A DNA stretch of 64,000 nucleotides from Psammoneis japonica. Taxonomy: Eukaryota. The notes below the pieces were generated by a model, which saw only the letters and a program-made list of their open reading frames with translations, was not told the DNA's origin and did not search any database. A program made the translations under genes and the position numbers. This document shows, one piece after another, positions 5,829 through 59,206 of the stretch. Where the stretch lies: contig QPGO01000054.1 of NCBI GenBank assembly GCA_008632985.1, positions 343,050 to 407,049 of the forward strand, given 5' to 3'. Position 1 is the first letter of the stretch, and every line of letters starts with the position of its first letter.

Positions 5829-5969
5829 TTCGTTTTCGCTGCAGTGTTCGGTTAGACAACGGCTCTAGCTATCAACAACCTACCATGGTTGTGTTTTTTG
5901 TGTATTATTTGGCCGGCGGCGGGCTGTTGGCTGCGGCGCTATCTGTGCGTCGTCGCGCGATGTACGTAG

Positions 5970-7447
5970 AGGAAAACACACCGACATCCAATGTGTGAAG
6001 ACAGAAAAATCTGAAACAATGTCCTCGCGACTCTGTGCCAAAAAAGAAGATTTTGGGGCACCGGGCACCGGAAGAGCTTTCCTGGGGCCACAGAGTTTCA
6101 CAAGCACAGCTCGTTTCGCACAAGGAAGGAGGATTTGACCAGAATCTTGACACTGGCAGGTTGATTCTTTTTTGCCCATTTGGACACTGCCACAGTCTCC
6201 AGAACACCACTTGCAGGTGGAGGCATGATGCTCTTTTGGGGTGTGCCAGGATCAGCCTGGCTGCCACAACAGCACCAGCTCATTTTTCAAAAAGGTGGCA
6301 CAGAAATGTGGTGCCAACTTCTTCATTTGTTGGTGAGGCAGCAGTCATTTTTGCCATGAAAAAAAAAAAGAGCACAAAACAACAATGGCCAGCTCCCTTG
6401 CAGCTTCTGTTCCAGCCCACTGTGTGTCTGGAGCTTCTCAGCCAGTGCAGGGTGTCATGCATCATTTGGGAGTCTTCAACGCAACTTGTCCTCAAAAATC
6501 TTTCTGTGACAAAGATGCGGCAGCCTTGGATGCTGTCATGTTGGATGACGGCGCCATTGGCTGGCCCCAACTCTGACTTCATTTGCCCCAACAACTTCAA
6601 GCTCTGCCAAAAAACTTCAGAGAAATGTTGGTGTGCAAAAAGGCAGTGATGCAGCACACCAGAGCTTTTTTAAGAGTGTTTTTGATTTGTGTTGTGGCAA
6701 GCAGGCAAAAGAGGGTGAGTTGCAAAAGAGTTCTTTCACACACCACAGCTGCAGATGAGTTTGAAGTCAAGGTGTCCAACAGCTTTGCTCCTTGGCCCCA
6801 ATGACCAGACAGGTGCTTCGCTTCTTTCAAGCTTGTGTGCCAGCTGCAAACAAGTTGAGCAATCACCTTGCTGCAGCCAGCCTCCATTGGCTGGTCAGGA
6901 GAGGCTCTACGAAGACTGGTTGAAAAGTCACTTTTCAACAGTTTGTGCAAAAAATGCAAACTTGGTTGAGTGTTGTTCTTCATCTCAGAGGATCAGAGAA
7001 TGAGGCACCCTGTCAACAGCTGTGTTGCATGTTTGAGATGTGTGTGGGCATGCAGTTCCTCAATTTTTGGGAACACAACTTGGTTCTCACAAGGCTGGAA
7101 AAAGTTGAACCAGGTGTTGCAGTGGGGGGAACCATCATCATTCTTGTCGCATTTTGTGAGACTCTTTTCTTGCTCCTGCTTTTGACAGGAGATCCAGTCA
7201 CAGGCCAGCTCTGTTTTTCTTCTGTCATCGTTTCTGATGTGAGCAGGGAGATGTGGGGGAATTCCACCTGCAGCACTGTGTTTGATGACACCTTTCATCA
7301 CAACTGCTGTGACAGCCCCCACTCAAGGCTGTGCTGGAGGGCAAGAGACTTCTTGAGCACCAACACGACTGCTGGTGTGCAAGAGCTGGCCAGAGGCTCT
7401 GCTGCTGTTCCCTTTGTCATTGTGGTGGGGGGGGGGGGGGGGGGGGG
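5970..7447. other. TpA/CpG-depleted hypermutated domain 1 (relic of unidentified inserted or duplicated sequence), ending in a G21 run
   Basis: About 2 TA dinucleotides in 1.5 kb (6671, 6908), few CG, Tyr-free Cys/His-rich ORFs; lies between divergent THADA and PRPP synthetase starts. Confidence 0.8.
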
Positions 7448-7750
7448 TTACAACTGCTTTCAATTAAATGCAGCACAGTGGTCCTGCTTGTCCATGTTGT
7501 TAACCAATGATTCCATTTTTTATGTGCAGGTTCTCTTCTACCGATCCTTGCAGTCCTGTGACACGGCCGCACCAGTGTCCGTCAGTCCTTACGGCCGGGC
7601 GGTAGTCGCAAAGATAATATCCAACATCCAACATCCCACGAAAAAAGATCTCGATCGCGAGTAGACTAAGTGCCGGCTGTGCTAAGCGATGCACAACTTC
7701 GAAACCGTCAACACTTTGCCACTATTTGCCGCCCCTGTGTCGATTATTCA

Positions 7751-16183: not shown

Positions 16184-17619
16184 CTTTTCATCCTCCCCCT
16201 GCTTCTGACAGCAATGTGATAGATACCTTAGCTACTCTTTGCTTTCAACGACGACAGCAACGAACTCAGAACAACAACAACACACTTCTTGTGGCTGGTG
16301 CGTGTTCCATTCTGATTCGTTGCGAAACTGCTATCGTGGCAATTTTGATTTTTGAGATACGAGACGCACGTGGAATTCTACATCAATAAAAAACTTCATT
16401 CTTGAAGGTTACATTGGCTTTTTCACGTATTATATTCATTCGATTATGAAGGTGGTTTTTGAACGTTGACCTTATGTATAGATACGGTCGCGTATGTTGC
16501 ATCAAAAAATCAATCTTGTCAATTTCAAATAATGATGGCCCAGCAGGGCCAAGAAAGAAAAAAACAAGCGACCAGCAAAGAACTTTTGATCGATCATGGC
16601 AAAGATCTTGCATGAGTTGTTCCTCCCTCAACCATGTTACTTACAGCACAGGTCCAAGCTTCCATCTCTAGAGTTTCTGGTTAATTTTGACTGTCACCCA
16701 TTGTCGCAGCAGCAGAGCACAGCTTGCTTGGCTGGCAAAGTGCCAGCGCTTCAGAGAGCCAAAAGAGACGAGCGGCATGTTGTTTTCAAACAATTGGCCA
16801 GGTGGCTCAAATGAAGTTCATTGCTCAGTTGGGTGTCAAACAGTGAGACAAAATCTCCATGAGATGTGGTGTGTCATTGGGCAGGGGGGGGGGGGACAAG
16901 AAGGGAGAGACAAAAATGGCACCGCCATGATTGTCAAGAGGTGCAACAAGAATGGCCGGGGTCATCTTTTCATCAGTGGTTTCCTCCAATGGCATGACAG
17001 AGTTTTTTCCATGCCAAACATTGTTGTGTTCTTTGGCTTTGTGTTGAGGCTTCACATTGGCTGGTGGCAAAGCAGCTGGGACACAACCAAAAGCAATGAG
17101 ATCAGTCAAAAGAGCGCGCGTTGCCATGTGGTGGCACCAGCAGCTGCCCAAAGGGCCACCTGCAGGATGCACTCTTGAACTGAGAGGAGGTGTTGGAGGT
17201 GCAGCATCAACTCCAGCAGTCTTCTCAGCAGACACAAAATCACCTGCGATGGCCAGTGTCTCTGCCTGATTTTTTATGGCTGTCATGTGTCATCGCATTT
17301 CTCAGCAGCCACAGGAGCAGGAGCCACAGAGCAGCAGGCACAGGAGATGGCCAGAGAAACAAGATCACAAAAATGCTCCACTGCATGCATGTGTGCTGCA
17401 TTTTTTGGCAAAAAAGCCAACTTTGGATCCCACAAAATGCTTCAAATGAAGTTGGTTTTGAGTGTGCATGTGTTGGCAGCAGCATCACAGACAGTCTGGG
17501 CAAGGGCAGGGACAGTCACATCATTGTTCCACTGCAGCAAAGCAGCCTGTCACTTTGGGTGTTGGGCAGTTGCCTCTTGTTCATGTGGGCATGCAAAAGT
17601 CAGAGATCCAAAGGCTGTG

Positions 17620-18550
17620 GCAGCTGCATGAGTGGAAGGGTGGTGTTGTCAATTTTTGTTTTGTTGCAAAATGCTGAGCTGCACCTGGGCAGGGTCGAGG
17701 CTGATGCCTTGGTGGTCTGTTGCAGCAAGAAGGCAATGTGCCAGCAACAACCACATTGGAGCAAATCTTGTTGATGTGAGTGGCAATGTGGGCATCACAG
17801 TTGGCTGCATTTTTCTGGAAGCAAACACAAGCATGCCTGGTTTCAATGCTGCTGAGCTGGTGCCAGAAAGGTCATTGTTGGCCTTGGTTGACAAGAAAGT
17901 TTCATGATCAGAAACACACAATGTCACCTGCAGTGGGCACACTGGCACAGATCCTGTGCACTCCAAAATGACATGGTGAGTTGCAGAGATGCTGATGGAA
18001 CTGTTGTGAGTGCCAAGATGACCGGCCAGGTTGCAAGGTGTGGAGGTGTTGCACCACAAAGCTTTGAGAGAATGAGTCTCTCTGAGATTCTTGTTGCTGT
18101 GTTGGTGCTGCACAGCAACCAAACAAGATTGCTCTGGCTGCAAGCAAAAATCTCCACAGAGATCTGGTTGCCATTGGTGTGCTGGACAAGTTTGTGTGTG
18201 TGTCTTGCCTCTGTCCAGCAAGGGTGCTTGCAGGATTCTTCTGATCTTGCTTCCTCATGACAAGTGAGTTGGCTCGCTGCTGCCATTGTTGTGCACCCCC
18301 TGCTGGCTTTTTTGGTCTTGCCACCCATCCACACACTGCAAGGTGAAAAGCACATGTGCTTTTGCTGATTGGGTGGGATGAGAAGGGCTTGCGCAGCTGT
18401 GTGTTAGTTTGACCAATGCTCAGGCACCTCCAAAGTGGAGGCACCAGCTGCACATGCTCAAGTTTCCAGCCAAGCAACAGAGCAAAAAGACCAACAAAAA
18501 CTTTGAAGTTTTTGTGATGAAAGAAGTGCTGGTTTGTTTGTGCATGAGTC
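17620..18550 (+). repeat. Diverged direct repeat, copy 1 (copy 2 at about 22730-24220)
   Basis: Shared blocks gctgcacctgggcag, ggagcaaatcttgtt, gagctggtgccagaaagg, gcaagcaaaaatctccac, cctccaaagtgga, ccaacaaaaactttgaag in the same order. Confidence 0.9.
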
Positions 18551-18799
18551 ATGACATTCAGTGTGGGTGGCCACACTGGCACATGCTGCGCATTGAAAAT
18601 GCACCAGTTCAATGACTCAGTCCCACATTTTGTTCCAATGCATGAAAATTTCTGATGCCATTGCATTTTTCATTTGTCCTCCATCAATGCATCATCCATG
18701 GTTTGTTCCTTTCCTTTTTAATCCCCCAGTCTGTCTGTGGTTGCTTCCATTGGCTTTCATTTTTGCAAATCATTGCCAAACATCAACCCAAGTGGCAGC

Positions 18800-19750
18800 C
18801 TGTTGCTGTGCCTCCAGGAACCACAAATCTGGGTTTTTGATGTTTTCATCATCCTCGTCCTCTGCCTGCAACTGATTGCCATCATCTTGGGTTTCTTCTC
18901 TGCTGTCCATGCACTCCCAGAACTCCTTTGACCAAACTTCTTTGTTGCACACCTCTGCATCCTCGTTCAATCTCTGCTTGTGGATCTGTTTTCTCAAGTC
19001 TTGGCACCTCTCCAGCCCTTGCTTGTTCCAACCGTGATTTTTTTCTCACTTGCCACTCCCATTGCTGCTTTTTGCATTTGGAATGAGCTCCTTGTCTCCA
19101 TTTTCCTTCAAGTCTTCCTTCATTGTGCTGTGCATGTGTGTCTGTCACTTGCTCCAATTGTTCTCCAAAATCAGCAGGCCGAGGAATGCCTCATTGCTCA
19201 CAGACACCAACGACCTGTTCAAGCCACATCTTGACTTGAACACATGCTTCCACAACATCTTTCCCACCACAACTGGCAGGAAGTGTGTGATGAAATGGCT
19301 TTGGGCCATCATGTTGTTCCCCCTGCCCCTCTCTGGCATTTCCTCTAGAGATGGCATCTTGGCATTGCTTTCTGCTTGAGTGTTCCTCTTTTTGTGATCC
19401 ATGCACCCTGTGAACTCACAAAACACCAAGCAATGTGTGTTGGCAGTGTCGCAGTTCCCCATCCATGGCACACTCCATTTTGATGCAGTGCTTGCACAGA
19501 AGAATTCTTTCTTCAGTTCCCCCCATTGGTGTTGTTCCTCTTTCTTGTTGTTTGCCTTCATGCCTTGTCCTTCAACATGTCCCAAGTTTGTGCTCTCCTT
19601 TCTTGGGGCACGGCAAGCTTGGATGGCACTGTCTTTGCAACCCTTCCACTCTTGCTGTTGTCAAGAGCCTTTTGATTTAGAAACTTGTGCTGTCTAAACA
19701 ATGCACTCTTGCAGCAGCTCTCCAGCACAATCTTGTCCCTGTCACTCATT
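18800..19750 (-). pseudogene. Relic of a transposon accessory-type ORF
   Basis: Fragments CKSALFRQHKFLN, VSVSNEAFLGLLILENNWSKW and HGWNKQGLERCQDLRKQ resemble the LFR-KF / SDEAF-L-LENN-W / GW-G-RY-L pattern I recall from diatom DNA-transposon ORFs; frameshifted and Tyr-free. Confidence 0.5.
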
Positions 19751-20059
19751 TTGTTGCTGTGTTGCTTTTTCTTGGCAAACAACCTGCAAGGAAAGATGCT
19801 TGTCACACCTGCAAGGTTTAACTTTTGGCCTCTGCTTGATGAATGAAAAGGCAGCAAAAAAGACAAAGGAAATGAAGCCAAGTTCCAACTTGTTTTCCTG
19901 GGGCCCATGCATGCAGTGATGGTTGAACATGTCACATTGGCATGACCAGGGAGGCTGAGACTTGGGTGCACGCCACTCAGAAATGGTTCTCAAAAACACA
20001 GGGACTGGAGCTTCCACTGGCAGTGACAAACAAGCACATGTGCTGCACTGTCAGAATGC

Positions 20060-20200
20060 ATTGCCCCACCATGAAGTGCACAATTGGAGCCACAGAGGCA
20101 CACATTGAAGGTGTTGGCCAAGTGAGAGCTAACCCAAGGTGTCATTCTGGCAAACCCATTTGTGATTGGGTAAAATTTGCTCAAACTGGACAATCTGCTT
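20060..20200 (+). mobile_element. Plavaka-like transposase C-terminal fragment
   Basis: GATEAHIEGVGQVRANPRCHSGKPICDWVKF matches the recalled RAxPxY...PxYDW motif with Y->C. Confidence 0.45.
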
Positions 20201-22729
20201 GCCTTGGTGTGCCCCAGTGGGCAACCATCTTCTGCAGAGAGACACCAACCAGTTTAAGTCTCAATCATTTTTGAATGACACACAAAGACACACACATTGG
20301 TTGGGGATCCCATGTTTGATCCAAGCAAGGTGTCCTCCTTGAAAAGAAAGCAGGTGCTTGTGTTCAAAGACAACCTCACTCTCAAGGAAGAAGAGCCAAG
20401 ATGGGAAGTCAAAACCTAAGAACAAATGGGTCATGCAAGTGCACCTGAATGAATTTTAAAATGGCAGGGCAGTCCAGTTGACAAGAACAGTGCAGATTGT
20501 TCTCCTCCTGAAGAAAGCAACACTGCAAGCACCTGTTTGGGCTGCTGAATGCAGGCATTGACTGTGGGCAAACCGGCTCACCCTTCTTCCTGGGATCATC
20601 AAGTTTTTTGCAGAACTCATTGTCAAATTTTTCAATGTGCCACCCTCCCTGTCTTCCAGACAAATGGGCCTTTTTTGGATTGACAGTGGAAATGCATTCT
20701 CCGCCAAAAGGAGCACTCTGATGAAGGCTGCCTTTCACCCTGACAGCTTGTCCAATGTTTCTCTCATCAGTGAAAATGACTTCAATGAAGGCTTCTTTTG
20801 TGACAAACAGGTTGAGGTTTTGACCAAGATGAGCCATGTCAAAGAAGCAATTGCCCGAGTCCCTTGTGCACTTCTTGATGACAAAACCCTTGCAGACTCT
20901 GTCTTTGCCACCATGGCAATTGCCAAATTCTCCCAGCTGGTTTGTGAAGGCAGCACAAATGTTTTTCATTGCATTCTCCTCAGCTGTTTAATTGACTGTC
21001 TTTTTGCTGATGCAATGAAAAACAAGAACAGCACTGCAAATGTCCAAATGTGACATCCAGCGCTTCCTGTCAGCACAAATGGATGCTTGACCCCTGTCAA
21101 GATTGAGTGGCACAAAAGTGAGTGCAAGCAATGTGTGTCCAATGCTTGTGGCCAGCCCAACCCAGCTTGCAAAGTGAGGAAATGTTCTTCCAACACAGTT
21201 CTTTGGGGTCTTTGCACACCCTCCTGATGTTCTTGAGTCCTGGCCTCTCCATTGGGTGGGCACTTTCCGTGGATGGTTGACAGCTGCAGAGGAACTGCAG
21301 GAGAGGAGATTCTTGTGCAACACCATCATTGGGAAGCTCCGGTCCACACACAACTGGGTTGTTGATGCTGGGATGTGTTGCAGGCAAGCCAATCAACGAA
21401 CTGGTGGAATGACAAAAGGAGGGAGCGGATGCTTGAGAAGGTGCTGCTTGGACAGTGACAGATTTGTGTGGGGTCCGGGGTGCACAGACTCACAATGGAG
21501 AGTGAGTCTGGGGTGGAGACAGAGCTCACTCAGCTGCTGCAGCAGTGGGGGAGACAAAGATGCAGTGAGTTCACCAGGGAAAGCTGGTGAACAAAGTGGG
21601 TCCATCTTCAAGAAGGGGGGGGGGGGGGCTGTGAAGTGGTCTGCAAAAAAAAAACACTGACATTGAACACATCTCCAAAGCTGTGACATGATGTGTCATG
21701 GCAATCATCCACGCAAATGATCCTTCAACAGCTGCACTCTCTGCAAAGGTGGGAGTCATCATGCAATGAACCCTGGCAGTTTGCTCTCTGGCTTGCAAGC
21801 CCAAAAAGTGGGGTTTGGTGGCTGCGCTGCCAATGTGAGGAGGAAGCATGAGCTGCACCCTGACAAAATCATTGAAGGGGGGCATGTCAACTGACATTGC
21901 TGCACCCCCGTAGAAATGGGGGCCATTGGATGAACCCCAGCAGCAACATCAGAAAATTGTCAAGAAGCACAGAACAACCACAAGCTGTGCCCCCCTGCAA
22001 GCATCATGGGGGTCATGGGATGAATGTTGGCAGCACAGCAGACATCTCCAATGTCATCCAATGCCAACCCTGTGATGCAGCTCTGCAGAACTGTGAAGAA
22101 ATGAAGAATGGCTCTGGAGATGGTGACTTCCTCCCACTTTTGACTGCATTCTGATGCTGCTTCTTTGATGGGCGAGAGTGGCGACATCCCCTGCATGCCT
22201 TTAAACTGCCGGAAGGTGATGAATGGTGACCCATGATGAACAAAAACCAACAAGTGCTGCACAGCAGCAGGTGTGTGGTGGAGAAGTGTCACTGCAGTGC
22301 ACAAAAATTGTGAGCAAAATTCCAACTGAACAAAACAAAGATTTTGGAACAAACAAACTTGTGCATTGAGTGGGACATCAAACCATGGGGAAAAAAGAGT
22401 TGTTGATTGGCACAAAAAGAAAACAGCATCACCCTAAAAAAGCTTGTGATTTGTGCAGTGCATCCATTTGGAGAACACATGGGGAGGATGCCAGCTGGGA
22501 GAATTTGGAAGAAAATGTCTGTTTCATGTGAAGTGGGACAAATTAAAAATCCAGGAAGCATCAATTAAATTTCACCACATTGCAGGAGTCATGCAGGTGC
22601 TGTGGGAGTCATGCATGGTTTTGTGGAAAAATGCAGGTTTGTCACAATGAATGTGGGTTGTCCTGCATTTGAGGAACAAACACCCAACAGATTGATGCAA
22701 AACCTGCATGGAACTTGCCTCTGACAGTG

Positions 22730-24220
22730 TGGCAGCCACATGTGTGGAAGGGGGTGAAGTCATCAACTGCTTTGTTGCAAAAAAAAAAAACTGGGCTGCA
22801 CCTGGGCAGAGTTGAGGCTTGTGTCTTGGTGGTCCTGCAGCCAGAGAGAAGGCAAGCATCAGCAACAACCGCACTGGAGCAAATCTTGTTAAGATGAGTG
22901 GCAGCATGGGCATCACAATTTTGACCGCATTTTCCAGAAGCAGACAAGTGTGCCTGACTGCTGGGCAGTGGGTGAGCTGGTGCCAGAAAGGTTGTTGTTG
23001 ACCTTGGTTGATGAGAAAGTCATGTGGTCAGAAGCACGCATTGTCATCTGCAGGCACAGTGGCTGGCACACAAGATTCTGCACATTTTGAAATGACATGG
23101 GGGGGGGTGAGTTGTGAGTTGCAGGGATGCTGACAAAAATGTGAGATGACCAACCAGGCCACAAGGCATGGTGTCAGCCATGCAAAGCTTTGAGGATGGA
23201 TTGGCGAGCAGAGGCAAGTTTTTCATGTGCTCGTCACAATCATTTGAAAAAAGGATGTGTCACACCAAATGAGCACACTCGCCACAAAAATTACAGGGAT
23301 GGGCAGAACTTTGTCTGTTCATCAGATGTCACAGAGTGCACAAACAACAGTTGTGGCCACACCATGCAGAATGTTCAGCTTGTTGACTGCAGACATGTCC
23401 ACAGAGCCAGAAATGCCAATTGTTGGCATTTGTTCCTGGAAAGTTGTTTCTTGTCTCCCACAACCAAGCAGTGCATTTTTGGCAAAAACTGGCAGTTTGT
23501 GAAACAAACAGCTTCACCAAATCCAACAATTGGCAGCCCCGATGAGGGCCAGACACCCCATGAGCATTTGGGGATGCTCAGAGGCATTGCAAAACAACAC
23601 AGGTCAAGTGCCTCTGCTCTGCTTGACAGCCCATTGTCACAAGAGAATGGGTCTCTCTCAGAAATTGTTGCTGCCTGTGGCACTGGTGCACAGCAACCAA
23701 ATGCATTGAGAAGATCTCAACAACCAGACAGGATCATCCTGCAAGCAAAAATCTCCACGGTGATCTGGCTGCCATTGGCAAATGTTGAGCTGTCGGCATG
23801 TCCTGCCCCCCTGTGTGGTGAGGATGCTGGCAGGATTTTGATCTTGCTTTCTCTTGACAAGCAAGTTGCTGCCATTGTTGTGCACTCCCCATTGGTTTTG
23901 TTTGGTCTTGAAATCCATCACTCATTGCAAGGCAGAAAAATGCACATGCTTTGAGAACTCAGAATTTTCTGTGGCCACCCATCATGTCTCCACACTCTTG
24001 CTTGCAACAGGCACACATTTCAACCCTGCTGACTGGGTGGGACAGATGAGCAGGTGGCTTGTGCAGCTGCACTCCAGTTGACCAATGCTTGGGCTCCTCC
24101 AAAGTGGAAGCACCAGCAGCAAATGCTCAAGTTTCTAGCTCAAAAGTGGAGCAAGCATGCCAACAAAAACTTTGAAGCTGAGGTGATGAAAGATGCACCA
24201 CTGGCTCTTTTGTGCATGAT
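22730..24220 (+). repeat. Diverged direct repeat, copy 2, with about 440 bp extra (about 23205-23640)
   Basis: Colinear with 17620-18550; several differences are TG versus CA swaps. Confidence 0.9.
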
Positions 24221-25296
24221 GCATGTTTGACACTCAAGCTCATTTATGAACACTGGTGGTCAAATCTAAAAGATTTGACTTGTCAATTGAAGTGGGTGCC
24301 AAACTGCAAAAAGCAGCAGGGAGACTGGTGAAACATTGAAAAGCAGCTGGCTGGCACTTGCAAAACACAACAAAGGCAGCTGCTGTGTTCTTCATTTTCA
24401 AATTTGGGTGTGCTCTCCTCACAACCTCCTCAGCATCACTGCAAGGCACAGTCACCAGCAACAAATTGTCTTGTCTCTGGAACAACACTGGTTGAACAAA
24501 GCTCACATTGCTGGATGGCACTGCTTGCTTTGTGAAGTGCAACCCTCACAGCGGTTGGGATGACGGTGCTGGCCCAAATGGAAAAAAGTCCCAGGCAAGT
24601 CAGTGGTGCAAGTCTTGAAGATCATGATGCTCTTTGTGTCATTTCAAGAAAAGAAAGAGGCAGTTTGTTGGAACCCAGCCACCGCTGCTTTTGGCTTTTG
24701 GCTTTTGGCCTGAGGGTTGCTGAGAAATGAGCACCATCCACACAGTGTGCAGCATGAGCCACACACACACACGCTGGCCCACATGGCCAAGGCATTGTGG
24801 ACACAAAAGAGCAAGGTTTTCAACAATCTTGTCTTCCAAACTCTTCTTGTGAGTTCAGACTCTCATTTTCTGCCAACATCCAGAATCTCAGGAAGTGTGA
24901 GATGGGTTGGAAAGGCTGTCACAGTGTGTTCCCAACCAATCACCTGGGACCACTGCACCTTGCTCTGGCAAGAGTTCATCCAGGAAGGATTGACAAATGG
25001 CTTGAGCTGATTTGCACACATGACTGCCTCCTGTTGCAATGGACATGTTTGAGCTCCATTTTTCAGCACCTCTGAACAGGTGGAACGGTCTCAACTTGGT
25101 CAGATTTTCCATGAGCGGACATCAAGAGTTCACACAGCGCCAATGGAATGACGCATTCTCGAGAGAATGGACACTTTTCAAGATGTGATTTGTGCCGTCT
25201 CCACCTGTCGCGTCGGTTGTCATTGACGACGAAATGGCGCATGTGAACGGCACAGCACAGAGTCCATGCTGGCATGAGTGCCGAGAACAGTTAGTC

Positions 25297-25352
25297 CTAT
25301 GTTGATTTGTCTTGTAATGTTGTTCTATGTTGATTTGTCTTGTAATGTTGTT
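25297..25352. repeat. 28-bp tandem duplication at the edge of domain 2
   Basis: ctatgttgatttgtcttgtaatgttgtt x2. Confidence 0.9.
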
Positions 25353-25577
25353 GCCTGCGGAGTCAGAACAATGTGATGTTGGCATGACTGCCCGACGTCG
25401 CAATGGCTCAGTCGCAAACCACAAACTTCCGATTATTGACATATGATCTAAAGCATAATACATACTATCAGGCAGGTAAGCTCTGCATCTTTGTCACCGT
25501 CCAAAGTGGTTTTTCTCCACGTAGCGGTTCTCGCCGTACTGTACAGAATTGCTGCTTGTTTCTCTACCAGTAGGTGT

Positions 25578-26983
25578 TCAATTCCGCCTCTTCACTTTCT
25601 GCATAGGATTCTTCTCATGCTCATCATCAAGGAGCTCAACACGAAGCCTCTTACTCCCACCTTCTTGCTCTGCCACTGCATCTCCGGCATCGTTGACAGC
25701 AATCGAGTCGTCCTCTTCCTCCGTGGAATCTGATGCGATCCGCGGGTGCTTTACGTACATGGTGCCAACACGTGACGCGAGGTCAGCCATCTTGAGACCC
25801 ACGCCAATCGAGATGGACTTGTACGTCCCATCTGGAAGAAGAACGTTGACCAAAATGGAAGACTCAGGACCACCAAAGATTTTGAACAGCCTTTCATTGT
25901 CGATTCTTGCAGAAGTTACGTGAAACATGCCTCCACGTAGTCTGAGCACCAAATGCACCGTGCTACCTTCCAGAATGTTATAGTCATCTAGTGTCCTGTC
26001 ATCTTCGAGCTGTGTTCCAGCAAAAAATAGTCGTTGCTCCTTTTGAGGAATCCCATCCATCTCAAAAATCGTTGATTTAATGTAGCTTATCTTGTGGTAA
26101 GGAGAGAGACCGGAGATGGTATAGGTCTTGCCCGTCAACGACTTTGCGATAATTTCAAAACCTTCGTTGTTGTCCCAAACTGTCGCCTCCAACAGGGGAC
26201 CAGCAAGGTTCAAATCATGGAGAGAAACGCTGCCATAGTCTTTACTCGTTTGAAGTTTGATACAACCCCCGTTGGCTGAGGTAACTTGAACGGTGCAAGT
26301 GGCATCGAGTCCGAATTCAGAAATGATCTTTCAAGTGGAGTCGGCAAGCCAGAGTGAGAAGTGAGACAGAGGAATGTACTAAACAATACGGGCCAAAAAT
26401 ACGAGGTTCTTCAACTTACGCCAAACAAGAAATCATTGACTTGGGCTGATTTCAACTGATGAATGACTTCGAAGCAACCACCTTTCTCTTGATCTTGACG
26501 GTGCCCTTTGTATGCTTGGTATGTTTGCAGCTTCTGCGGTATGATGAACGTGCAATGTTCCTTCTTGTCCCGCGTCTTTATTGCTAGAATTTCAGGTTTC
26601 TGAACAATTTCAAGGCCATGGTATTGGTGAAAGATTGTCAAGGGCGTGGACAAAAGCGTTCTTACGTCTTCGTACAACTGAGGAGGAGTCTTTGCAACAT
26701 ATAGGCTTCCACCGTCAAGAAGAATGGTGTCTTCATTTTCTAGAATGAAGTATCTGCGTGAACCTCCCGTACGAACCTTTTCGATCGTCTTGATTGGCAA
26801 ACTGGTGTCAGAAAGAAACAGATTCTTGGACATATCACTGATACGGGAGTCCGAACGAAGCTTCGAGAGCAGCTCAAGCACCGTCATGTTTCTTTCAAAT
26901 TCGACACTGACCGCCGTGCTGCTGCAGGATGCGGCTGAATGGCGCTCTTCAGGCTTCTCGCAAACGTTGACCTTGATGAACAT
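25578..26983 (-). CDS. Protein with an internal ubiquitin domain, 2 exons
   Basis: KSLTGKT...[42 protein letters not shown]; intron 26328-26419 joins LFG|IISEFG in frame. Confidence 0.8.
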
Positions 26984-27353
26984 GGTGTGTAGATATCGGT
27001 ATTATCTTCGAAGAGGAAAGGGATATTATGCTCAGCATCCACAGCAATCATCAATGCTGCTCCTGCTTGTTCAGAGTTTTTTTGGAGAGTGCTTCGCAGC
27101 ACCCCTGACCAGGTTTTGATAAATGACAGTGAAGTGATTCGCCTGCTCAGGGGCATGTCCTCCCTCAATCCTCATCTCAACCCTCTTCGCTCGTCGCGTC
27201 GCTCCTCGCTTTCTACCGAGAGAGAATACCATACTGTAGAGGAATGCCCATCATACGTACTCTATCTATGCGGAGAGAGGGCCTTTAGAGCTAGAGTCTA
27301 TTGTATTTTTCTCAAGACTTCACTCCAAACTCCTCACTTTTGAGTGCTGCACC

Positions 27354-37173: not shown

Positions 37174-37502
37174 GATTGAAGCAATGAGACTTGATCTATG
37201 GACTGCAGGTGAGAGGAAAAACTGGAATTAGCAGCGGAGTGACCAACGGCAGTGGTAATAACAACAAGCGACTACAAAGGACCGAGTCTGAGGTTTGAGG
37301 AGGCACCAGCCACCCGACGACGTCAAGCCAACAAGCAATTCTCCAAGCTCCAGAAGTTGCTCCAAGCAAGAGCTTTTTGTCTTCGCGTCCAGCGTCGCGC
37401 GCCGCGCGTCGCGCACGCATGCAGCTACGGCACCATGCAGCCAAATCGAACGACGGTGTCCCCGCGCCATTGCTGAATGCCGTTAGAACTCCGACAGCTG
37501 TA

Positions 37503-38695
37503 CACCCAACACCAACACCGCAGTCGTCCAACATCGCACAACACAACAGTTGTGCAGCATCGATCGTTGAAGCTCATTGAACAAGCCAGAAGATCCGCAT
37601 GCCCTGATGGTCACGAAAGAAGAAGCCACCTCAGAGGTGGCCCGCACGCCCAGTCCTCAAAAGGAATTGTCTCCAGCGAAACGCGCCAAAGTTGGTCCCA
37701 AGGTTGATGTTGCTTTTGCAGAGAGTTTGGTTCATGCCAGCACACAAAGGCAGAGTGACGAAGAAGATCCGCGGCTTGTCAGACGGGCCGCTTTGTGGAG
37801 GAGAATTCGTCGCCAATGCTGAGACAAGAGTTTCTGCACTTTGAGTTTCTGCTTTTCCAAGATGGAGTCTAGTGATTCAGGAGAAGAGGTCATTGCTTGG
37901 TGCGGTGTCACTGCAGGCCATCTTGCAGATGATGGCAACAGCACCCACGTGTGTGCAGGAGGTGTGGGCAGCCAGGGAAACCCCATTCTCTGCGAGGTCG
38001 GTGCAGCGGTGTCCAAGTCTGCGTCGACCAATTTTTTGATCTTCTCCACAAGGAAAGATGACAGGATCCGGGTGATGGAGATGCTTCTCGCTGAGAATTT
38101 GGGTCTTGGCAATGATTTTTTCACTCTTCCAAATGAAGGAGCAAGCTTTGAAAATGGGGCAATGTTGATCAGGTTCGCTGCCCAGCAACGTGGTGCCATC
38201 AGCACGGTGAGCACCCCTTGTTTGGCTCACAATGGGAAAGCTGCAACAGCTGGAGACATTGCAGTCACTGATTGAAAATCGAGATGGCACAAGTCAGCTT
38301 GCCAATGATGGAGATGGTGGGGCCATTTTCATCTGCAAAAGTGGTGATGGTTGGTGCATCCCATGTGCTGCGCAGTTGTGCAGATGGTTGCCACAAATCC
38401 TTTGGTGTGCCTTTGAAATCTATTTTCAAGGCTCACTCACTTTTGGGAGGGGCTCCTGCTGCTCCTGCCACAGAGTGTCATCAGTCAAGCCCTGCCAAGT
38501 GCAAATTCTTTGAGTCCCACAATGTCTTGCATGTTGAAGATGTTGCGTTTGAGAATGTGGGTGACTTTTCTGAATCTCACAATCTTGCACATGGTGAGGC
38601 TGTATTTGAGCAGGACAACTCGCTTGAACGGCCAATCGCGAAACTGGGATGAAGGGCCATGCCACACCTCATGCCTCACCCAGGCACCAAAAATG
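37503..38695 (+). pseudogene. Trypsin-like serine protease pseudogene inside TpA-depleted domain 3
   Basis: WCGVTAGHL (TAGH His motif) and NDGDGGAIF (GDSG-like) motifs; in-frame TGA at 37820 and frameshifts; 2 TA in 1.2 kb while many CG remain. Confidence 0.6.
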
Positions 38696-39120
38696 ACTAA
38701 ACACGCGGATGAATCGCGTGCTTCATGTTGTCTTCCATCCCGTGGACTACGCGCAGGTAAAAAAAAACAGGAAACATCTAATGTTGGTCGTATTTGATTG
38801 ATTTGATTGATCATTATTGCCGGACGTCAATGCGGAATGCGGTAGTACAGTAGTCCGCCTTCTTCCCCCATCGATTCATTTAGTGCATCGGATCTCAATA
38901 TGGATACGGTATTGTTTTATGATAAGCTGCAAGAATTGTTTCGCCTAATGTAAATCGACGTTCAGCTTGTTTTCAACAGCACAGCATCTCTATACCATGC
39001 GCCCATCTTAGCTTGTGACAGCAATCTAGGAGCCTATCTAACGTTTAATGTGCAGCATAAAGTCATTCAAGATCTTAGAGTCCCAAAAGTCGAAACAATT
39101 ATGTATTGTGCAGTTCATAT

Positions 39121-40006: not shown

Positions 40007-40209
40007 GGTCGTGTGAAAACTAGAGTGGCGAAATGGATGTTTTCGATTTTGTGTGGAAAAGTGGAGATGACCATCACTGGATCGCCCAACGTCCCCGTGA
40101 CGGTTAAATGTCTATTTAATTTTCCGGAAAGCTGAATACATTGATGCTCAACACATCCGTTCAACGTCATATTGCATGTTCATTGCCTTATTTAGAATTT
40201 ATTGCATAA

Positions 40210-40795
40210 AGCAGTCATCTCTTCCTTCCCGCGGGAATGAATTTGAGTCGATCACGCCAACGCCGCCACACTGACTTTGCTCACTGGATTTAGAAATTCA
40301 AACAAAGAAAAACAGAATTTGCTTTCTTTGCCTGAACAAAAGAGATTTGGCTGTGGGTCTTGCTCTTCTTTTTGCATGTGCCGGGTCAACAAGAGAGCAG
40401 CTGTGCCTCTCTCCACTGGCGCAAAAGCTGGGGCGAAATTTGGCTGGGGCTCCGCCTCAAAAGAAAAAAACACAGGAGCCCAGAGCAGCGTCTCTTTGTT
40501 TGCCAAACGAAAAATGCGTCACACGCCTTTTCTGTGGGTGGCTGTCCCATCTGCCCAGGGGCTTTCTAGCTGGCCCAAAGCTCTCGACTTTTGGAGGTGT
40601 CCACGGCCACTCAAGAAATGGGAAGTCAACGCGGCGTGGCACTTCAGACTGAGCGACAGAGGGCAGGGGGGGGGAGCAGGGAACAAAGGAGAACCACCGA
40701 GCGCGCGAGGACACGAACAATTCGGCGATGGAGAAGGAAGAAAAGGAGAGGCCTTCTTTTCAAATGCTTGGCTGGAGTCGCAGTCGTGTGCGTTG
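40210..40795. other. Small TpA-depleted domain 4
   Basis: Only TTAG (40291) and CTAG (40567) remain in about 590 bp; AT-rich TA-containing flanks; CG retained; G9 run. Confidence 0.7.
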
Positions 40796-41243: not shown

Positions 41244-42156
41244 ATGACAAGAATTAGACGGACACTATTCATCTGCGCTACACTTCTTTCGGCAGCAGCA
41301 TCGGGTAGCACAGATGTGAAGGAGAGTAGCGTAAGCCAACACGAGTTAGCGACAGTCAGAGATTCACGCCTACTCGGTAAGTTCTCATTTCAAGAGTTGT
41401 GTGTAATCATTTCTGCCATGTGAAAATGAAATTGGGACGAATTTGCACCTCCCCGGACCTGGAATATGGTGAATCATAGCTAAAGTAGATGTTTGTGTGC
41501 AGTGGTTGCGGCTATCAAAGTCTCAGTTTATGATTCATGAGAAAGCTTTGCAGCCAGAAACCCTAAAGACAAAAGGAAAACTGGAAATATCGTTTACTGT
41601 TGGCACCACTCGGCTGACTATAACTTTCTCCATTTCACTCTCGCACATTTGTGTTTGAACAGGGGACGAGACACCGAAAGTTCATCATCATCATGCTGGC
41701 ACGGACGGTGGTGGTGGTGGAACAGGAGGAGGCGGCGGTGGCGGCGGCGGCGGCGGAGGAGGTGGCGGTGGTGGAGGAGGTGGAGGTGGTGGTGGAGGAG
41801 GAGGCGGTGGTGGTGGCGGTGGCGGAGGAGGCGGTGGTGGTGGCGGAGGAGGAGGTGGTGGAGGTGGCGGTGGAGGAAGTGGGGCATCGGGAGCGAGGCA
41901 CGCTCCAGCTGGGGTAGCACGCAGAAACACAATGCTTTTGGTAGGCATCGCAACAACTATTGGCTTGGTAATCGCAGGTACAGTGATGCGCAAGCGACGA
42001 GTGGTGACTGAGGCACATCCACTTCAAGGAAGCTTAGACCGCAGAATGAAATTGTTTGGAACTCTTGCAGGAAAGACAGATTCCCGTCACAACCGTCCGG
42101 CACGGCGACATGAGGATGAATATGAATCTATGGGTGATGACGGTGTCATGGCCTGA
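41244..42156 (+). CDS. Single-pass membrane protein, SAP-like family member C, with poly-Gly linker (internal exon structure uncertain)
   Basis: Signal peptide, DSRLL (RxL), HHHH, long Gly tract, TM-VMRKRR, then AHPLQGSLDRRMKLFG. Confidence 0.7.
41707..41878 (+). repeat. GGN trinucleotide tract encoding poly-glycine
   Basis: Mixed GGT/GGC/GGA codons in frame with the downstream TM exon. Confidence 0.9.
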
Positions 42157-43549: not shown

Positions 43550-45069
43550 TGAAAGCTCTGTCCAGCAAGCACTTTAAAATGTCTAACTGGCAATGATTTC
43601 ATTTCAGCAAATCCAGCAGACCTTCTCTTTGGTGTCCAAAGTCTCATCTGTTGACTCGTGCGAACAGTGGAGATTGCGCACTCCCTGACACAGACACCAA
43701 AACTTGAGGCATCCAGCAGCGAAGCCACAGATGATCCCTCCGCATCCAGCATCCTCGTTCACATCCAGCGAAGCATCTCTGGAGGTGTCGCAGTCACAAA
43801 CATTGACCCGGGCACAGACCTTTTGGAAATCATGAAAGCTCATCCAGAAGCACCCGTCGTCTCTTCAGCTTCAAATTGCAACTGCTTGGCAATGCTCTTG
43901 TGCTTCTTCCACGCGCTCAAGTGATCGCTCCACTTCCCCTTCCACTCGTGGGTTCCCCAAGGGTTTCGTAACTTCATGAGCTTGCACGGTTTGGCTCCTG
44001 ATGTGGGAAGACCTGTCGCATTGCGATCAGTGACTTCTGCAGCAGATGTGACACTGCAAGCATGACCGGCAACGAGTCCATCCTTTTCGAGCATTTGCTC
44101 ACCACTCGGCCCGTCCATCTTGCGACAGTCCATTTCACCAATAGAAGCGGAAATGAGAGCCTTTTGCTTGTCACGCTTTTTAAGGAGTGTCCACAATTGG
44201 TCCTTGGAGCATTTTTCCTTGGTCGTGCCAAATCCACAAGCACGCTTGTTGCTTGGATTCTTGCCATCCTTGAGAGCCACCATGTCTTCCCAAACCCAAG
44301 CGTGACTCTTGGGGTCCAACGACATTTGAAACACGTCATCGCCTGTCATGGACAGCCAACCCCACAGGACGAAACCACCAGAAACGTCTGCACAACTGCC
44401 ACAGAACTTGGCGCAAGCCTTCTCGAGAAGGATCGCCCACACAGTTCATTCCCCCGTTGGGTTTCATGAACCAAGGCTTCTTGGAACCCTTCTTGCAGGG
44501 AATGCGGTCATTGACCGTGATGATGACCCATCGTTTGTGTTGTGGATCAAACATGCGAATCTTGTGCGTGCCACAAGGACTGCACTCCTTGGTGAGAAAC
44601 ATGTGACGAATCACATCGGGAAATTCCGAAGCACACGCAAAGGCAGCCACCAACTGGCAATCACCGACAGCACCTTGACACAAGTCACTCGGCTCAATTT
44701 TCCCCTCAAACAACTGAGGTCTCTTTCCCCTGAACGCACCCAAATCTTGTGCTCTTGCCCAATCGGTCTCCTTTTGCATTTGTGTTGCAGCAGGCTTGGA
44801 CCTGTCTTCTTTGGAATGATCTCCGAGAGCGGCTGCTCCGTGAAACTTGTTGTCTTCGCATGGATGTCCAAAGCAGCAACAGCAGACAAACCTCCACAAA
44901 CAGCCGTTTCCCACATTGAGACAGCGCTGACAGAGAACCGTGGCACAGGGAAAGCCGTGGATTCGAGTGGATTTGTAGAGAAGCCCAATGGCAGACATGA
45001 AGGGGCAGCGCACAAAAGATTCCAGAGGAACCCTGCCCTGCCACTCTCAATTTCCTTGAAGGTAGGCAT
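43550..45069 (-). pseudogene. Calpain-like (CysPc) cysteine protease pseudogene inside TpA-depleted domain 5
   Basis: DLCQGAVGDC, WAILLEKACAK, GLVAGHACSV and KLRNPWGTHEWKGKWSD motifs; frameshifts near 45010 and 44445; conserved Tyr positions read Cys or His. Confidence 0.92.
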
Positions 45070-50692: not shown

Positions 50693-51239
50693 GGTTATTT
50701 GCTGCTCTTGTTAAAAGCGGAAGGCAGCGTCTCTGAAGGCGGACACACGTTTTGTAATATTATAGACTAGCAATCCAATGCGCATGCTCAAGATATCATG
50801 TAGGCTCCGAGATTCATAATACAACCAAATTGCCGAGACAGTCCCCGCGGCTCCAAAATGCAAGTCCACGATCGAAAGACATGTCCAGGCATCCCTCTCG
50901 ACATGCAAAGAGTCTTGTTTGGGCAGCTACGAGCACCGCTAGGCTAGGACGGAAAAGTGTTATCGGACAACGATCAGGGTTATAGAGTGTAAAGGACGAC
51001 TCTTTTGAACCAGACTACTCTAAACTATCTCTGTGAGTGAGAGATAAGACGCGTTGTGGGGCACCAAGTTTAGCACGCACATCTAGGGTGAAAAAACCCT
51101 CACACCAGCAAAAGTTGAAGGCTTGCCGGTCGGAGTGGAAAAAAATAAATCGCATCCTCGACAATGACCCGCGCACCGCCGTTCGTGTCATACGGCATTT
51201 TCGTTGACTTTCCTGTCAATCATGGTCTAACACCTTGTG

Positions 51240-53500
51240 ATGTGTTGGTTGATTGCTGACATGGCAGGTGCAGCATTGACGGTCGCCGTTTGCAACAGAG
51301 ATGATGTGAGTGGGGAGTTTGTTTTGACGTGGAATTTCTTGCACGGATGTCCACAGCATGGGGGCATCATTTTGTCATGACAAGTGCACCTTCAATTTCA
51401 GCACCAAGATTGTGGCAGATGATCTACATTGTTTGAATGTGACACAAAACTGATGAGATGATTTGATCCACATTTTGTGGTTTTTCAGCCTGTCCAACTG
51501 CACAGGCAACATGAGTGGCATGAGAGATGCAGACCAAATGAGGAAGGTCAGGGTCACCAGAATGAGGCACGTCATCTGTGACCACATTCTTGACACCAGC
51601 AAGATGCTTGCCAAGGGAGTCAATGCCAACATTCCCACAAATGCAAATGGCAGACCAAATGCAGCACAAGAGCCATTCATTGCCCCAAATGGCTGATCCA
51701 TCTGGGGGGAGGGGGCTGATGATGTGGCAGCTGTGCTCCCACAAACTCTTTGCACTTGGCATTCTTGAGAGAGTTGTTGATGGTCAGGCTGTGCTGGGAA
51801 GAACCTTCAGACCCCACCACAGGAGAAAAAGAGCCAGACAAAATTCTTCAATCTCATCAGAAGAAACATGCTGGACATGTCAGGCACCTCTTTTTGAGGA
51901 ACCTCCCGAGTGATGAAAGGAGTGACAAGCTCTTTCCCCACAAGAAAGGGGGGGGAGAGTTCAACAACAGAAACACCAATTGGGTCTGGAGACAAGAGAG
52001 AACACCTGTGCACCCAGGCTTGCAAGATGCCCGGCAATGTCATGGGCCCTGATGTTGACATCCTGGGAGTTGCAAGTCACCTGGTGGCAGTGGGGCATTG
52101 CACCAAGCTGAAAGGAAGGTTGGACAACACCTTGAATGTTGCTGAGCATGCTTGCAGCCAGCCACTTTAACTGAAGGTGACACTTCAATGATGGAGAGTG
52201 CTCCCCCAGATTGCGATGCAATCAAAGTCCTTGACACAGGCATTGAAGACAAGCCTGAAGTTGCCAGTTTTTGAGATGGCATCTGACGAATTGTGAGCAG
52301 CCACAATCATTGATGCACACAACCAACTTCTTGACAAACTCAGAGCCATTGCATTGCCAGAGCTGGGGTCAACAGAATGCTTGGAGATCCCACGACCCTC
52401 CACAATGGCAAAGCAGCAATGAGAGAGTGACCCATGTGCAGCATGGGCAGAAACAAAAACTGCGGATGACTTTGCCTCCCAGCCATTGACCCACCCAACA
52501 CCTCAACATGAACCACAATCCAAACCCTGCTGCCCATGTCCCTCCTGACATTTGCCATTTCCATTTCCTCTCTCTTTCCCTGTGGCCTCCCATGCTGTGG
52601 TCAGTTTTTGCTTGAAACCCTTGAGTGGCTGCACAACTTTTGCAACCAATTTGGTTCCAGAAGCAACTTTTGCAACAATTCACAAGCTTGGATGTGGCAA
52701 CTTCTTTGGCAACCCATGGCCACCGGCCCTTTGACTTTTGCTGCCCACAATCTTGGGTCCTGCAGCTTTTGCAACACACAGCCTTGGGTGTGCCCACAAC
52801 CCCCCTTGAAGGTGGCTGCAAGTTTCTTTCCAAGAAAAGCAGGAGACAGAGTCTGTCTTGAGGCCAGAGGCAGCTGAAGCTGGAGCTTGATTTTGCTGGG
52901 ATGGACACAGCACACCATGCTGCCAAAATTCCCACTCTGAGCATGGAAAACTCAGCGAGATGGTGAAAGAGAAAAAAAGGTGCTCCTGCTGGTGTGCCAA
53001 AGTGTGAGCGGCACTTGCACCGCTGACCCAGGCAACTCTTTGTTCATGTTGGCAACCACAAAAGTGATTTTTAGCATGATTGACATGAACCCAATTTGTC
53101 CAAGCTTGGCACGAAAGATGTGGTTTCTCAGCGACCATTTGCCGGGTGATGTGTCACTTCTGTCACTGGCAAACATGGCAAATGACTGACTTCATGACAA
53201 ACAACAACACCTGCATGCACGAATCAAACCCCAAAAGACTTGCAGGCATGCTTGCACACTGCTCCAGCCCCCAGCACCACTTCCGCCAGCCTCCAGAGCA
53301 GAGCCACACCACCTGCCCTTGGCCAGGTTGTTCCCAAGAACCGGTTGTCCATCCAGCCATCATGCCAGCCACAGCCACCCACCCACCATGCCGGTGAGGC
53401 CCCACCTGCCACACCACACCAGCCATCCAGCCAGGACCCGACTTTAGTGCACAATCCCTTGCCAGGCCAGGCCAGGCCAGGCCAGCCATCGCCAGGACCA
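51240..53500. other. TpA/CpG-depleted hypermutated domain 6 (unidentified relic) ending in (GCCAG)5
   Basis: About 3 TA in 2.2 kb (51425, 52168, 53445); gccag x5 at 53461-53485. Confidence 0.85.
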
Positions 53501-58943: not shown

Positions 58944-59078
58944 GATTGACGAAAGCGCTCGGCTTGAAAAAGTGAGGCCAATGTGCGATGATTTGTGTTG
59001 CCGAGTCGATCATGATTAGAACAATGCACGAATCGATTCTTCGACCAAACAAGTAGACTTGTACTTGAAGTCGTCAGC

Positions 59079-59206
59079 CAGAAGCTGAGTCGATGCACGA
59101 ATCGGCTAACCAGAAGCTGATTCAATGAACGAATCGGCTGACCAAAAGCTGAGTCGATGCACGAATCGGCTAACCAGAAGCTGAGTCGATGCGCAAATCG
59201 GCTAAA
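59079..59206. repeat. 32-bp tandem array, 4 units, each an imperfect hairpin
   Basis: cagaagctgagtcgatgcacgaatcggctaac units at 59079, 59111, 59143 and 59175. Confidence 0.92.

What the first reader, a model, noticed from the sequence alone, without database searches (positions are those of the whole stretch)
25080..25296. TpA loss extends further than CpG loss: two separable clocks
Seen: the right edge of domain 2 has many CG (gtcgcgtcgg, gacgacgaa) but no TA until about 25292. The left edge of domain 7 (59230-59540) and the small domains 3, 4 and 5 show the same CG-present, TA-absent state, whereas cores of large domains lack both. Inference: TA erasure is faster or spreads wider than methyl-CpG decay, so it is not a by-product of deamination, and the CG level may date each relic.
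Basis: partly seen in the sequence, partly recalled or inferred. Interest (0 to 1): 0.7.

Follow-up and report, generated by a model that had tools for sequence, protein, structure and literature searches.

The report
Fast TA erasure outruns CG decay
In this diatom genome, dead transposons and dead genes have their TA steps rewritten to TG or CA much faster than their CG steps decay, which leaves a thin TA-free, CG-rich rim around old junk DNA; a TA-specific mutator like this has been reported in one unrelated alga and its enzyme is unknown.

Summary
Confirmed. 25086-25291 holds 0 TA but 14 CG, with a CA+TG surplus. At 24 of 28 domain edges the TA edge lies further out (median +138 bp; null about 0), and 535 kb contain 42 kb TA-only but no CG-only segment. 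Thirty copies of one copia family give the order: TA turns to TG or CA copy by copy (up to 79% lost at about 1% other divergence) while CG loss is 10% or less. So TA loss is a separate, faster process (11-52x in four young copies), on both strands, preferring TAY. Corrections: CG loss sits in the same patches as TA loss (odds ratio 5-6 within copies), so the clocks share a territory; CG level records time under silencing, not age; small domain 4 shows no conversion. It matches the TpA hypermutation of Bigelowiella natans (bioRxiv 10.64898/2026.01.13.699255); I found no diatom report. The enzyme (TadA/ADAT-like adenine deaminase) is inferred only.

The parts
25086..25291 (.). TA-free, CG-intact rim of domain 2 (the finding)
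   Evidence: 0 TA, 14 CG, CA+TG o/e 1.60; no second copy in the genome found; no informative protein match
16683..25085 (.). Core of domain 2, depleted of both TA and CG
   Evidence: 17000-25000: TA o/e 0.04, CG 0.10, CA+TG 1.84
18555..22724 (.). Old dispersed repeat of unknown class inside domain 2
   Evidence: 53 other matching places at 67-89% identity; the 19 fetched are TA- and CG-depleted over the match; homology traced to 22724, with a further piece at 23279-23611; no Pfam family over its cut-off in 45 ORFs
16492..16682 (.). Left edge of domain 2: counter-example, CG low while TA persists
   Evidence: 5 TA, 2 CG; fitted offset -105
25306..27043 (-). Intact ubiquitin-domain gene next to the rim; TA and CG at background level
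   Evidence: ORF 25578-26330 with PF00240; a contig of run X2 covers 25306-26327 and 26420-27043, skipping a CT..AC segment
59230..59540 (.). TA-free, CG-retaining rim of domain 7
   Evidence: 1 TA, 12 CG, CA+TG o/e 1.55; fitted offset +299
59541..64000 (.). Core of domain 7 (continues to G000:C55:410849)
   Evidence: 14 TA, 17 CG in 4460 bases; segment end
43585..45062 (-). Domain 5: frameshifted calpain-like gene (43607-45069), TA erased, CG partly kept
   Evidence: 8 of 8 conserved Tyr changed (5 Cys, 2 His, 1 Arg), 9 of 13 conserved Arg kept; no close second copy
37274..38697 (+). Domain 3: frameshifted gene (37607-38610) plus upstream DNA, TA erased, CG falling from left to right
   Evidence: 57-75% identity to P0058; 5 of 5 Tyr now Cys or His; CG per 200 bases 12, 20, 11, 6, 7, 3, 1
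40208..40795 (.). Domain 4: TA-poor stretch without CA+TG gain; probably composition, not conversion
   Evidence: TA 2, CG 30, CA+TG o/e 1.16
5968..7448 (.). Domain 1, both depleted; edge offsets +136 (left) and -103 (right)
51229..53444 (.). Domain 6, both depleted; edge offsets +116 (left) and +85 (right)

Best explanation
Two mutational processes work on the same silenced chromatin at very different speeds. (1) A fast DNA-level process turns TpA into TpG or CpA, on either strand, one site at a time, best at TAC and TAT and worst at TAA (shown from copies); most likely an adenine deaminase of the TadA/ADAT fold recruited to silenced DNA (inferred, about even odds). (2) A slower C-to-T decay of CpG, most likely from DNMT-set 5-methylcytosine (spectrum shown, methylation inferred). 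Where silencing is weak or recent, as at domain rims, young insertions and newly dead genes, the fast process saturates and the slow one has hardly begun: TA-free, CG-rich. Where it is old and strong both are gone. The rim at 25086-25291 is such a low-dose edge, ending 15 bases from DNA covered by a spliced contig of the neighbouring gene.
For: Direction: 1810 of 1918 changed TA in 30 copies became TG or CA, 783 of 795 in the 21 youngest; losses of TA and CG (36 and 50 per kb) balance the gain of CA+TG (82 per kb) in cores; Tyr to Cys/His in two dead genes. Specificity: A-to-G after T 11.1%, after A 0.48%, C 0.26%, G 0.27%. Speed: hazard ratio TA:CG 11-52 in four young copies. Shared territory: within 8 copies that hold both kinds of zone, CG lost at 41 of 797 sites in TA-hit zones against 9 of 785 in TA-spared zones (Mantel-Haenszel odds ratio 5.0, p 0.001; private changes only 6.3, p 0.004); in the pair L092/L086 all 6 CG losses in the element fall in the TA-hit 2.4 kb and 0 of 84 in the spared part. 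Graded rim: anchored on the TA edge, CG per kb runs 59, 46, then 38, 21, 11, 13 in 100-base steps inward; in three older full-length copies both losses weaken towards the element end (TA 0.98 to 0.68, CG 0.50 to 0.23). TAY is the preferred motif of TadA-derived base editors (PMC10879117). An ADAT2-like gene and 27 C5-methylase-domain matches are in the genome.
Against: No methylation or chromatin data. The rim at the finding keeps CG at full background level (o/e 1.03) beside a core at 0.10, a sharper step than a smooth gradient would give. Four of 28 edges go the other way. Non-YR changes are also raised in TA-hit zones (odds ratio 2.1-3.5, p 0.03-0.04), so part of the co-location may be a general rise in local mutation. 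The deaminase genes found are an ordinary set; the D108-equivalent Asn of the ADAT2-like protein is common to all eukaryotic ADAT2, and the one natural DNA-editing ADAT2 prefers GAA, not TA (PMC10354150); TadA7.10/8e fused to T7 polymerase mutate A in any context (PMC10085711). Divergence of the nine more distant copia copies includes change before insertion.
Confidence: 0.6

Rival explanations
1. The TA mutator has its own, wider territory: it follows small RNAs or a histone mark that reaches 100-200 bases beyond CG methylation and also covers unmethylated dead genes.
For: 24 of 28 edges offset outward, all 11 set-aside edges too; full CG density in the rim at the finding; TA erasure of the calpain gene follows its coding span closely (43585-45062 against 43607-45069).
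Against: A rate gap of 11-52x gives the same rim without a second territory; CG loss tracks TA loss inside copies; in young copia copies TA loss is weakest near the element end, not beyond it; the calpain gene has lost CG too (o/e 0.63; 4 of 13 conserved Arg).
Confidence: 0.25
2. Same pattern, other chemistry: the modified base is the thymine of TpA (oxidised or otherwise altered T read as C), or a methylated adenine that later deaminates. This competes with the deaminase step only, not with the two-rate reading.
For: TpA is a dyad, so A-to-G on one strand and T-to-C on the other cannot be told apart from sequence; no special deaminase expansion was seen.
Against: The TAY preference fits TadA-type recognition. 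No Tet_JBP match was found, but that search rang nowhere and does not show absence. Adenine methylases were not searched.
Confidence: 0.3
3. TA loss is a by-product of error-prone long-patch repair of 5mC-derived T:G mismatches (polymerase-eta type, recalled from antibody hypermutation), the patches running past the methylated zone.
For: Would explain co-location and the outward offset.
Against: TA changes outnumber CG changes 7 to 1 in young copies and reach 76% where CG loss is 3%; A after A is hit 23 times less than A after T; neighbouring hits share a strand in 467 of 938 pairs, as by chance.
Confidence: 0.06
4. Editing of retroelement RNA or cDNA during replication (ADAR- or APOBEC-like), fixed at insertion.
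For: Young copia copies are prime targets; ADAR favours a 5' U (stated in the Bigelowiella preprint).
Against: TG and CA outcomes are equal (331 and 316) and not strand-coordinated; flanking DNA of one insertion is hit as well (13 of 20 TA); dead host-type genes are hit.
Confidence: 0.02
5. The rim is chance, base composition of element ends, or an assembly artefact.
For: One edge alone has P about 0.03 against real-sequence junctions; domain 4 does look compositional.
Against: No resample of 28 null junctions out of 20,000 reached the observed mean or 24 positives; CA+TG surplus in the rim; X1 contig identical across it.
Confidence: 0.05

Closest known systems
TpA-specific hypermutation of integrated NCLDV and virophage DNA in Bigelowiella natans (Mettrop et al., bioRxiv 10.64898/2026.01.13.699255; read parts 1-4 of 5, supplements closed)
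   Same: TpA to TpG or CpA on both strands, regional, can hit single-copy DNA, leaves TpA-poor CpA+TpG-rich clusters, enzyme unknown with ADAT2 proposed.
   Different: Here a diatom; targets are retrotransposons, an unclassified repeat and dead host-type genes; erasure goes to saturation over 38% of the 535 kb sampled; it is paired with slower CpG decay in the same patches (the preprint has no occurrence of 'CpG' or 'diatom'); a TAY preference is measured. No de novo rate here.
Repeat-induced point mutation (RIP) of fungi (search listings; details recalled)
   Same: Works like it: genome-wide, dinucleotide-specific transition mutagenesis that ruins repeats and leaks into neighbouring DNA.
   Different: RIP makes C-to-T and creates TpA; this destroys TpA. 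RIP needs duplicated DNA; the calpain gene has no close copy in the assembly.
CpG decay of DNMT5-methylated transposons in diatoms (PMC9998398, abstract and section 9 read)
   Same: CG methylation in Phaeodactylum sits on transposons with H3K9me2/3 and H3K27me3; CG to TG/CA here fits its long-term trace.
   Different: That paper reports no TpA loss (0 occurrences); methylation in this genome is not measured.
TadA-derived adenine base editors and amphioxus ADAT2/3 (PMC10879117, PMC10085711, PMC10354150; passages read)
   Same: A-to-G in DNA; editors work best at TAY.
   Different: Editors are engineered and far less strict about the 5' T; BjADAT2 prefers GAA and TCG. No enzyme is tied to the diatom process.

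Membership tests
Bigelowiella-type TpA hypermutation | A-to-G / T-to-C confined to TpA | tested here: met
   11.1% after T against 0.26-0.48% after other bases in 17 young copies
Bigelowiella-type TpA hypermutation | Both outcomes, TpG and CpA | tested here: met
   331 TG, 316 CA
Bigelowiella-type TpA hypermutation | Regional, leaving TpA-poor, CpA+TpG-rich clusters | tested here: met
Bigelowiella-type TpA hypermutation | Can act on single-copy DNA | tested here: met
   calpain gene: only itself by DNA search, paralogues at about 37% or less; searches give lower bounds
Bigelowiella-type TpA hypermutation | Targets integrated viral DNA | not tested
   no giant-virus or virophage insertion was looked for; targets seen are copia copies, a repeat and dead genes
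Bigelowiella-type TpA hypermutation | Almost no G:C-to-A:T change in the target | tested here: inconclusive
   young copies: 647 TA against 90 CG changes; old domains lose CG as well; time scales differ from a 378-day experiment
Bigelowiella-type TpA hypermutation | De novo rate about 1000-fold above background, on in some lines only | not testable with these tools
   needs mutation-accumulation lines; copy-to-copy spread of 0-79% at about equal divergence fits on/off behaviour
Fungal RIP | C-to-T transitions that raise TpA | tested here: not met
   TpA is destroyed; C-to-T at CpA 0.24%
Fungal RIP | Triggered by duplication | tested here: not met
   single-copy calpain gene is hit; a 94%-identical local duplicate pair on C55 keeps its TA (74 and 77)
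Fungal RIP | Premeiotic timing, RID-type methylase | not testable with these tools
   27 PF00145 matches were not classified
5-methylcytosine CpG decay | C-to-T concentrated at CpG | tested here: met
   1.19% at CpG against 0.24-0.45% elsewhere in young copies; 44 of 47 CG converted in a duplicated segment
5-methylcytosine CpG decay | CG methylation present on the affected DNA | not testable with these tools
   no bisulfite or long-read data; methylase domains exist
Polymerase-eta / mismatch-repair A:T mutagenesis (features recalled) | Both TA and AA hit, in strand-coordinated patches | tested here: not met
   AA 0.48% against TA 11.1%; 467 of 938 neighbouring hits on one strand
ADAR/APOBEC editing of retroelement intermediates (features recalled) | One-strand polarity, confined to the element | tested here: not met

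The most novel reading that the evidence does not exclude
Diatoms carry a natural, chromatin-guided DNA adenine deaminase that acts as the first and fastest arm of genome defence, ahead of and alongside CG methylation, and the same system is shared with Rhizaria as an old SAR-wide 'reverse RIP'. TA, CG and the slow TTAA class then give three nested timers of silencing, and the enzyme would be a natural A-to-G DNA editor with strict TpA specificity.
Probability: 0.3. Interest if true: 0.9.

Novelty: new variant of a known kind. Interest (0 to 1): 0.65.

Why it matters
TpA-specific hypermutation is in print for one alga, on viral insertions, from one preprint. Here it is shown from natural copy series in a second eukaryotic lineage, on transposons and dead genes, covering over a third of the DNA sampled, with its context preference, its lack of strand processivity and its coupling to CpG decay measured. 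That narrows the enzyme search (TAY, both strands, silenced DNA) and makes the question of a natural DNA adenine deaminase testable in diatoms, where knockouts exist. Practically, YR sites must be masked when dating repeats in this genome, and TA-free open frames in such DNA are not evidence of genes.

Tried and rejected
No second copy of the rim or of 23.6-25.3 kb was found (only the older internal duplication; among fetched loci), so its ancestral sequence and whether it is element end or host flank stay open. A read-through frame over 24402-25250 found one weak match to a repetitive protein among 1.84 billion: not used. Pfam named nothing in domain 2 or its relative (0 of 45 ORFs over a cut-off); domains 1, 6 and 7 were not scanned against Pfam. 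Tet_JBP search blank and uninformative. No RNA holder listed; run X2 behaves like spliced cDNA (8 joints with GT..AG or CT..AC ends) and gives no cover over parts of domains 3, 4 and 5, which is not evidence of silence; a contig cannot show where an RNA ends. Domain 4 rejected as a converted domain, and 57553-58020 (3 TA, inside an intact 677-codon ORF, CA+TG o/e 1.28) left as coding bias. Eleven of 39 edges were set aside because the outer side was TA-only or the inner side CG-rich; all 11 were positive. Edge statistics rest on two contigs (535 kb of 91 Mb); a larger sample could not be fetched. Literature searches that found no report of TpA loss in diatoms: (open-licence PubMed Central and bioRxiv only).

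Full report
1. The observation. The window is gene-dense DNA of 48% G+C with sharply bounded domains that lack TA, and mostly CG. Separate segmentations put the right TA edge of domain 2 at 25291 and its CG edge at 25085. Between them lie 0 TA (8.0 expected) and 14 CG (core density predicts about 1.2), with CA+TG at o/e 1.60 against 1.15-1.18 outside, so TA was converted rather than never present. A contig of run X1 equals the window over 25001-27311. The left rim of domain 7 and domains 3 and 5 behave alike; domain 4 has no CA+TG surplus and is set aside; the left edge of domain 2 runs the other way.

2. Is the offset general? I fetched 494 kb around the window and from contig C1. A five-state model over 535 kb of called bases gave 330 kb background, 116 kb lacking both, 47 kb TA-low with middling CG, 42 kb TA-only and no CG-only segment (margins of a few hundred bases are below its reach). 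At 39 joint edges I fitted TA and CG change-points separately; 28 had a plain background outside and a CG-poor inside. In 24 of 28 the TA edge lay further out (mean +119, median +138 bp; sign test p 2e-4); the 11 set aside were all positive. Junctions made from real background and core pieces gave mean +7, SD 90, and none of 20,000 resamples of 28 reached the observed mean. Anchored on the CG edge, TA per kb is already 25 and 10 in the two outer 100-base bins against about 40; anchored on the TA edge, CG falls over about 300 bases.

3. Organism and targets. All 10 taxon-labelled of 57 homologues of the domain-5 protein are diatoms (some names are cut short). Domain 2 holds an old dispersed repeat (53 other places) whose homology ends about 1.5 kb or more short of the rim; the rim's origin is unknown. 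Domain 5 is a full-length, frameshifted calpain-like gene with no close copy: at 220 columns conserved in 36 of the 57 homologues, 8 of 8 Tyr are gone (5 Cys, 2 His, 1 Arg) and 9 of 13 Arg remain. Domain 3 is another frameshifted gene with 5 of 5 Tyr turned to Cys or His. Beyond the rim lies an intact ubiquitin-domain gene; a spliced-looking X2 contig covers it down to 25306.

4. Order and speed. Of 150 scored copia reverse-transcriptase matches I took the best 30 loci: some keep both dinucleotides, many have lost most TA with CG at about 40-65 per kb, a pattern repeated in several families at 0.2-0.9% non-YR divergence between nearest copies. For one family, 30 loci of 49 matches were compared over 4.1 kb (173 TA, 226 CG) against the majority state of 12 near-identical copies. 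1810 of 1918 changed TA became TG or CA, mostly in copy-specific patterns. In 21 copies under 1.2% non-YR divergence TA loss spans 0-79% and CG loss 0-10%; in 4 at 1.2-5%, 65-96% and 12-28%; in 5 beyond, 91-96% and 47-56%. TA loss exceeds CG loss in 27 of 30, the other 3 being almost untouched. Hazard ratios are 11, 13, 20 and 52 in four young copies. TA loss therefore cannot be a by-product of CG deamination.

5. Fingerprint. In 17 young copies (4 of the 21 dropped as sharing a flank or a pattern with another copy) A-to-G is 11.1% after T and 0.26-0.48% after other bases; C-to-T is 1.19% at CpG and 0.24-0.45% elsewhere; TG and CA outcomes are 331 and 316; neighbouring hits share a strand in 467 of 938 pairs (20 copies); relative rates are TAC 4.1, TAT 2.3, TAG 1.5, TAA 1; in old cores TTAA survives at 0.49 of background and GTAC at 0.004. 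This is many single events on chromosomal DNA, not a processive burst, RNA editing or patch repair.

6. One territory or two? Inside single copies TA loss is patchy at the kilobase scale. L092 and L086 share an insertion site; L086 has lost 47 of 48, 12 of 18, 4 of 29, 0 of 30, 0 of 25 and 1 of 23 TA along the element and 13 of 20 in the flank, and its 6 CG losses all lie in the TA-hit part. Stratified by copy, CG is lost 5-6 times more often in TA-hit zones, though non-YR changes are raised 2-3.5 times too. Near the element end both losses weaken. So the simplest reading is a shared silenced territory whose weak or recent margin saturates the fast clock only. A wider territory for the TA process is not excluded without methylation data.

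7. CG as a date. It rises with divergence across the family (Spearman 0.91; distant copies include pre-insertion change). But a tandem duplicate straddling a domain edge on C55 has 44 of 47 CG and 34 of 38 TA converted in one copy and kept in the other, and CG falls twentyfold along domain 3. It dates exposure to silencing, not insertion. The process is recent: the X1 contig differs from the window at 7 listed sites within the calpain gene, all TA/CG versus TG/CA transitions, against 4 differences in 10.8 kb of three neighbouring contigs; alleles are the likely cause, assembly error is not excluded. At one site, a conserved Trp, X1 has a stop codon where the window has its TA-erased form, so the gene was dead before that TA was lost.

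8. Enzymes. Nine PF00383 matches read as dCMP deaminase, a TadA-like protein, an ADAT2-like protein, RibD and others (labels are my reading of motifs). There are 27 C5-methylase-domain matches. In Phaeodactylum DNMT5a sets CG methylation on transposons marked by H3K9me2/3 and H3K27me3 (PMC9998398, section 9). TadA-derived editors work best at TAY (PMC10879117, passage), but are not strict (PMC10085711, passage), and amphioxus ADAT2 edits DNA with another preference (PMC10354150, passages). The deaminase is thus a hypothesis.

9. What is known. The Bigelowiella preprint (parts 1-4 of 5 read, supplements closed, its Table S2 bears on the TAY question) reports TpA to TpG/CpA hypermutation of integrated viral DNA; it mentions neither diatoms nor CpG. 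The diatom case meets its sequence-level features and adds transposon and host-gene targets, saturation and coupling with CpG decay. It works like RIP (recalled) but fails RIP's defining tests. Five searches found no diatom report. Earlier notes of this scan describe the same process elsewhere in this genome; two call it undescribed, which the preprint contradicts. I count them as leads only.

10. Verdict. A real feature and a fair reading: two separable rates, most likely on one territory. New variant of a known kind; interest 0.65.

Noticed in passing
window 25297-25352: Exact 28-base tandem duplication starting six bases after the first TA beyond the rim; it supplies four of the first TA steps outside the domain.
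   Followed up: no
L079-L108, last 900 bases of the element: In young copia copies TA loss falls from 0.81 in the upstream coding part to 0.07-0.21 over the end of the coding region and the terminal repeat: the 3' end seems shielded.
   Followed up: partly
L091 and L098; L104 and L106: These pairs share long runs of identical TA fates, so already-mutated copies were duplicated, converted or transposed again.
   Followed up: no
L085, L087, L088; L086, L092: Copies on different contigs share the same right flank: alleles, segmental duplicates or a composite mobile unit.
   Followed up: partly
window 17616-18553 and 22728-24225: Internal direct duplication in domain 2 at 72-76% identity, 5.1-5.7 kb apart; possibly decayed terminal repeats.
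   Followed up: no
window cores of domains 1, 2, 6, 7: Remaining CG is about half as frequent, relative to background, after A or T as after C or G: CG decay has its own context bias.
   Followed up: no
window 37607-38610: The dead gene has only 2 database relatives and motifs that recall a trypsin-like protease (recalled, not tested); relative P0059 has Cys and His at two sites where P0058 has Tyr, so its host may show the same process.
   Followed up: no
G000:C55:291019-298132 (L013, L014): 7-kb element with a 277-base repeat pair differing at 23 sites, 22 of them in YR steps; interior TA 7.8 and CG 65 per kb.
   Followed up: partly
L074 (G000:C79): A deaminase-fold domain in one open frame with what reads as a 2-oxoglutarate/Fe oxygenase domain (second label recalled).
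   Followed up: no
G000:C297, C301, C10, C28: Clusters of C5-methylase-domain matches, several with internal stops: an expanded or mobile methylase family.
   Followed up: no
window 59078-59205, 41706-41882, 46088-46274, 47597-47799, 60359-60472: Short local tandem repeats; the 59078-59205 array lies just outside the rim of domain 7.
   Followed up: no
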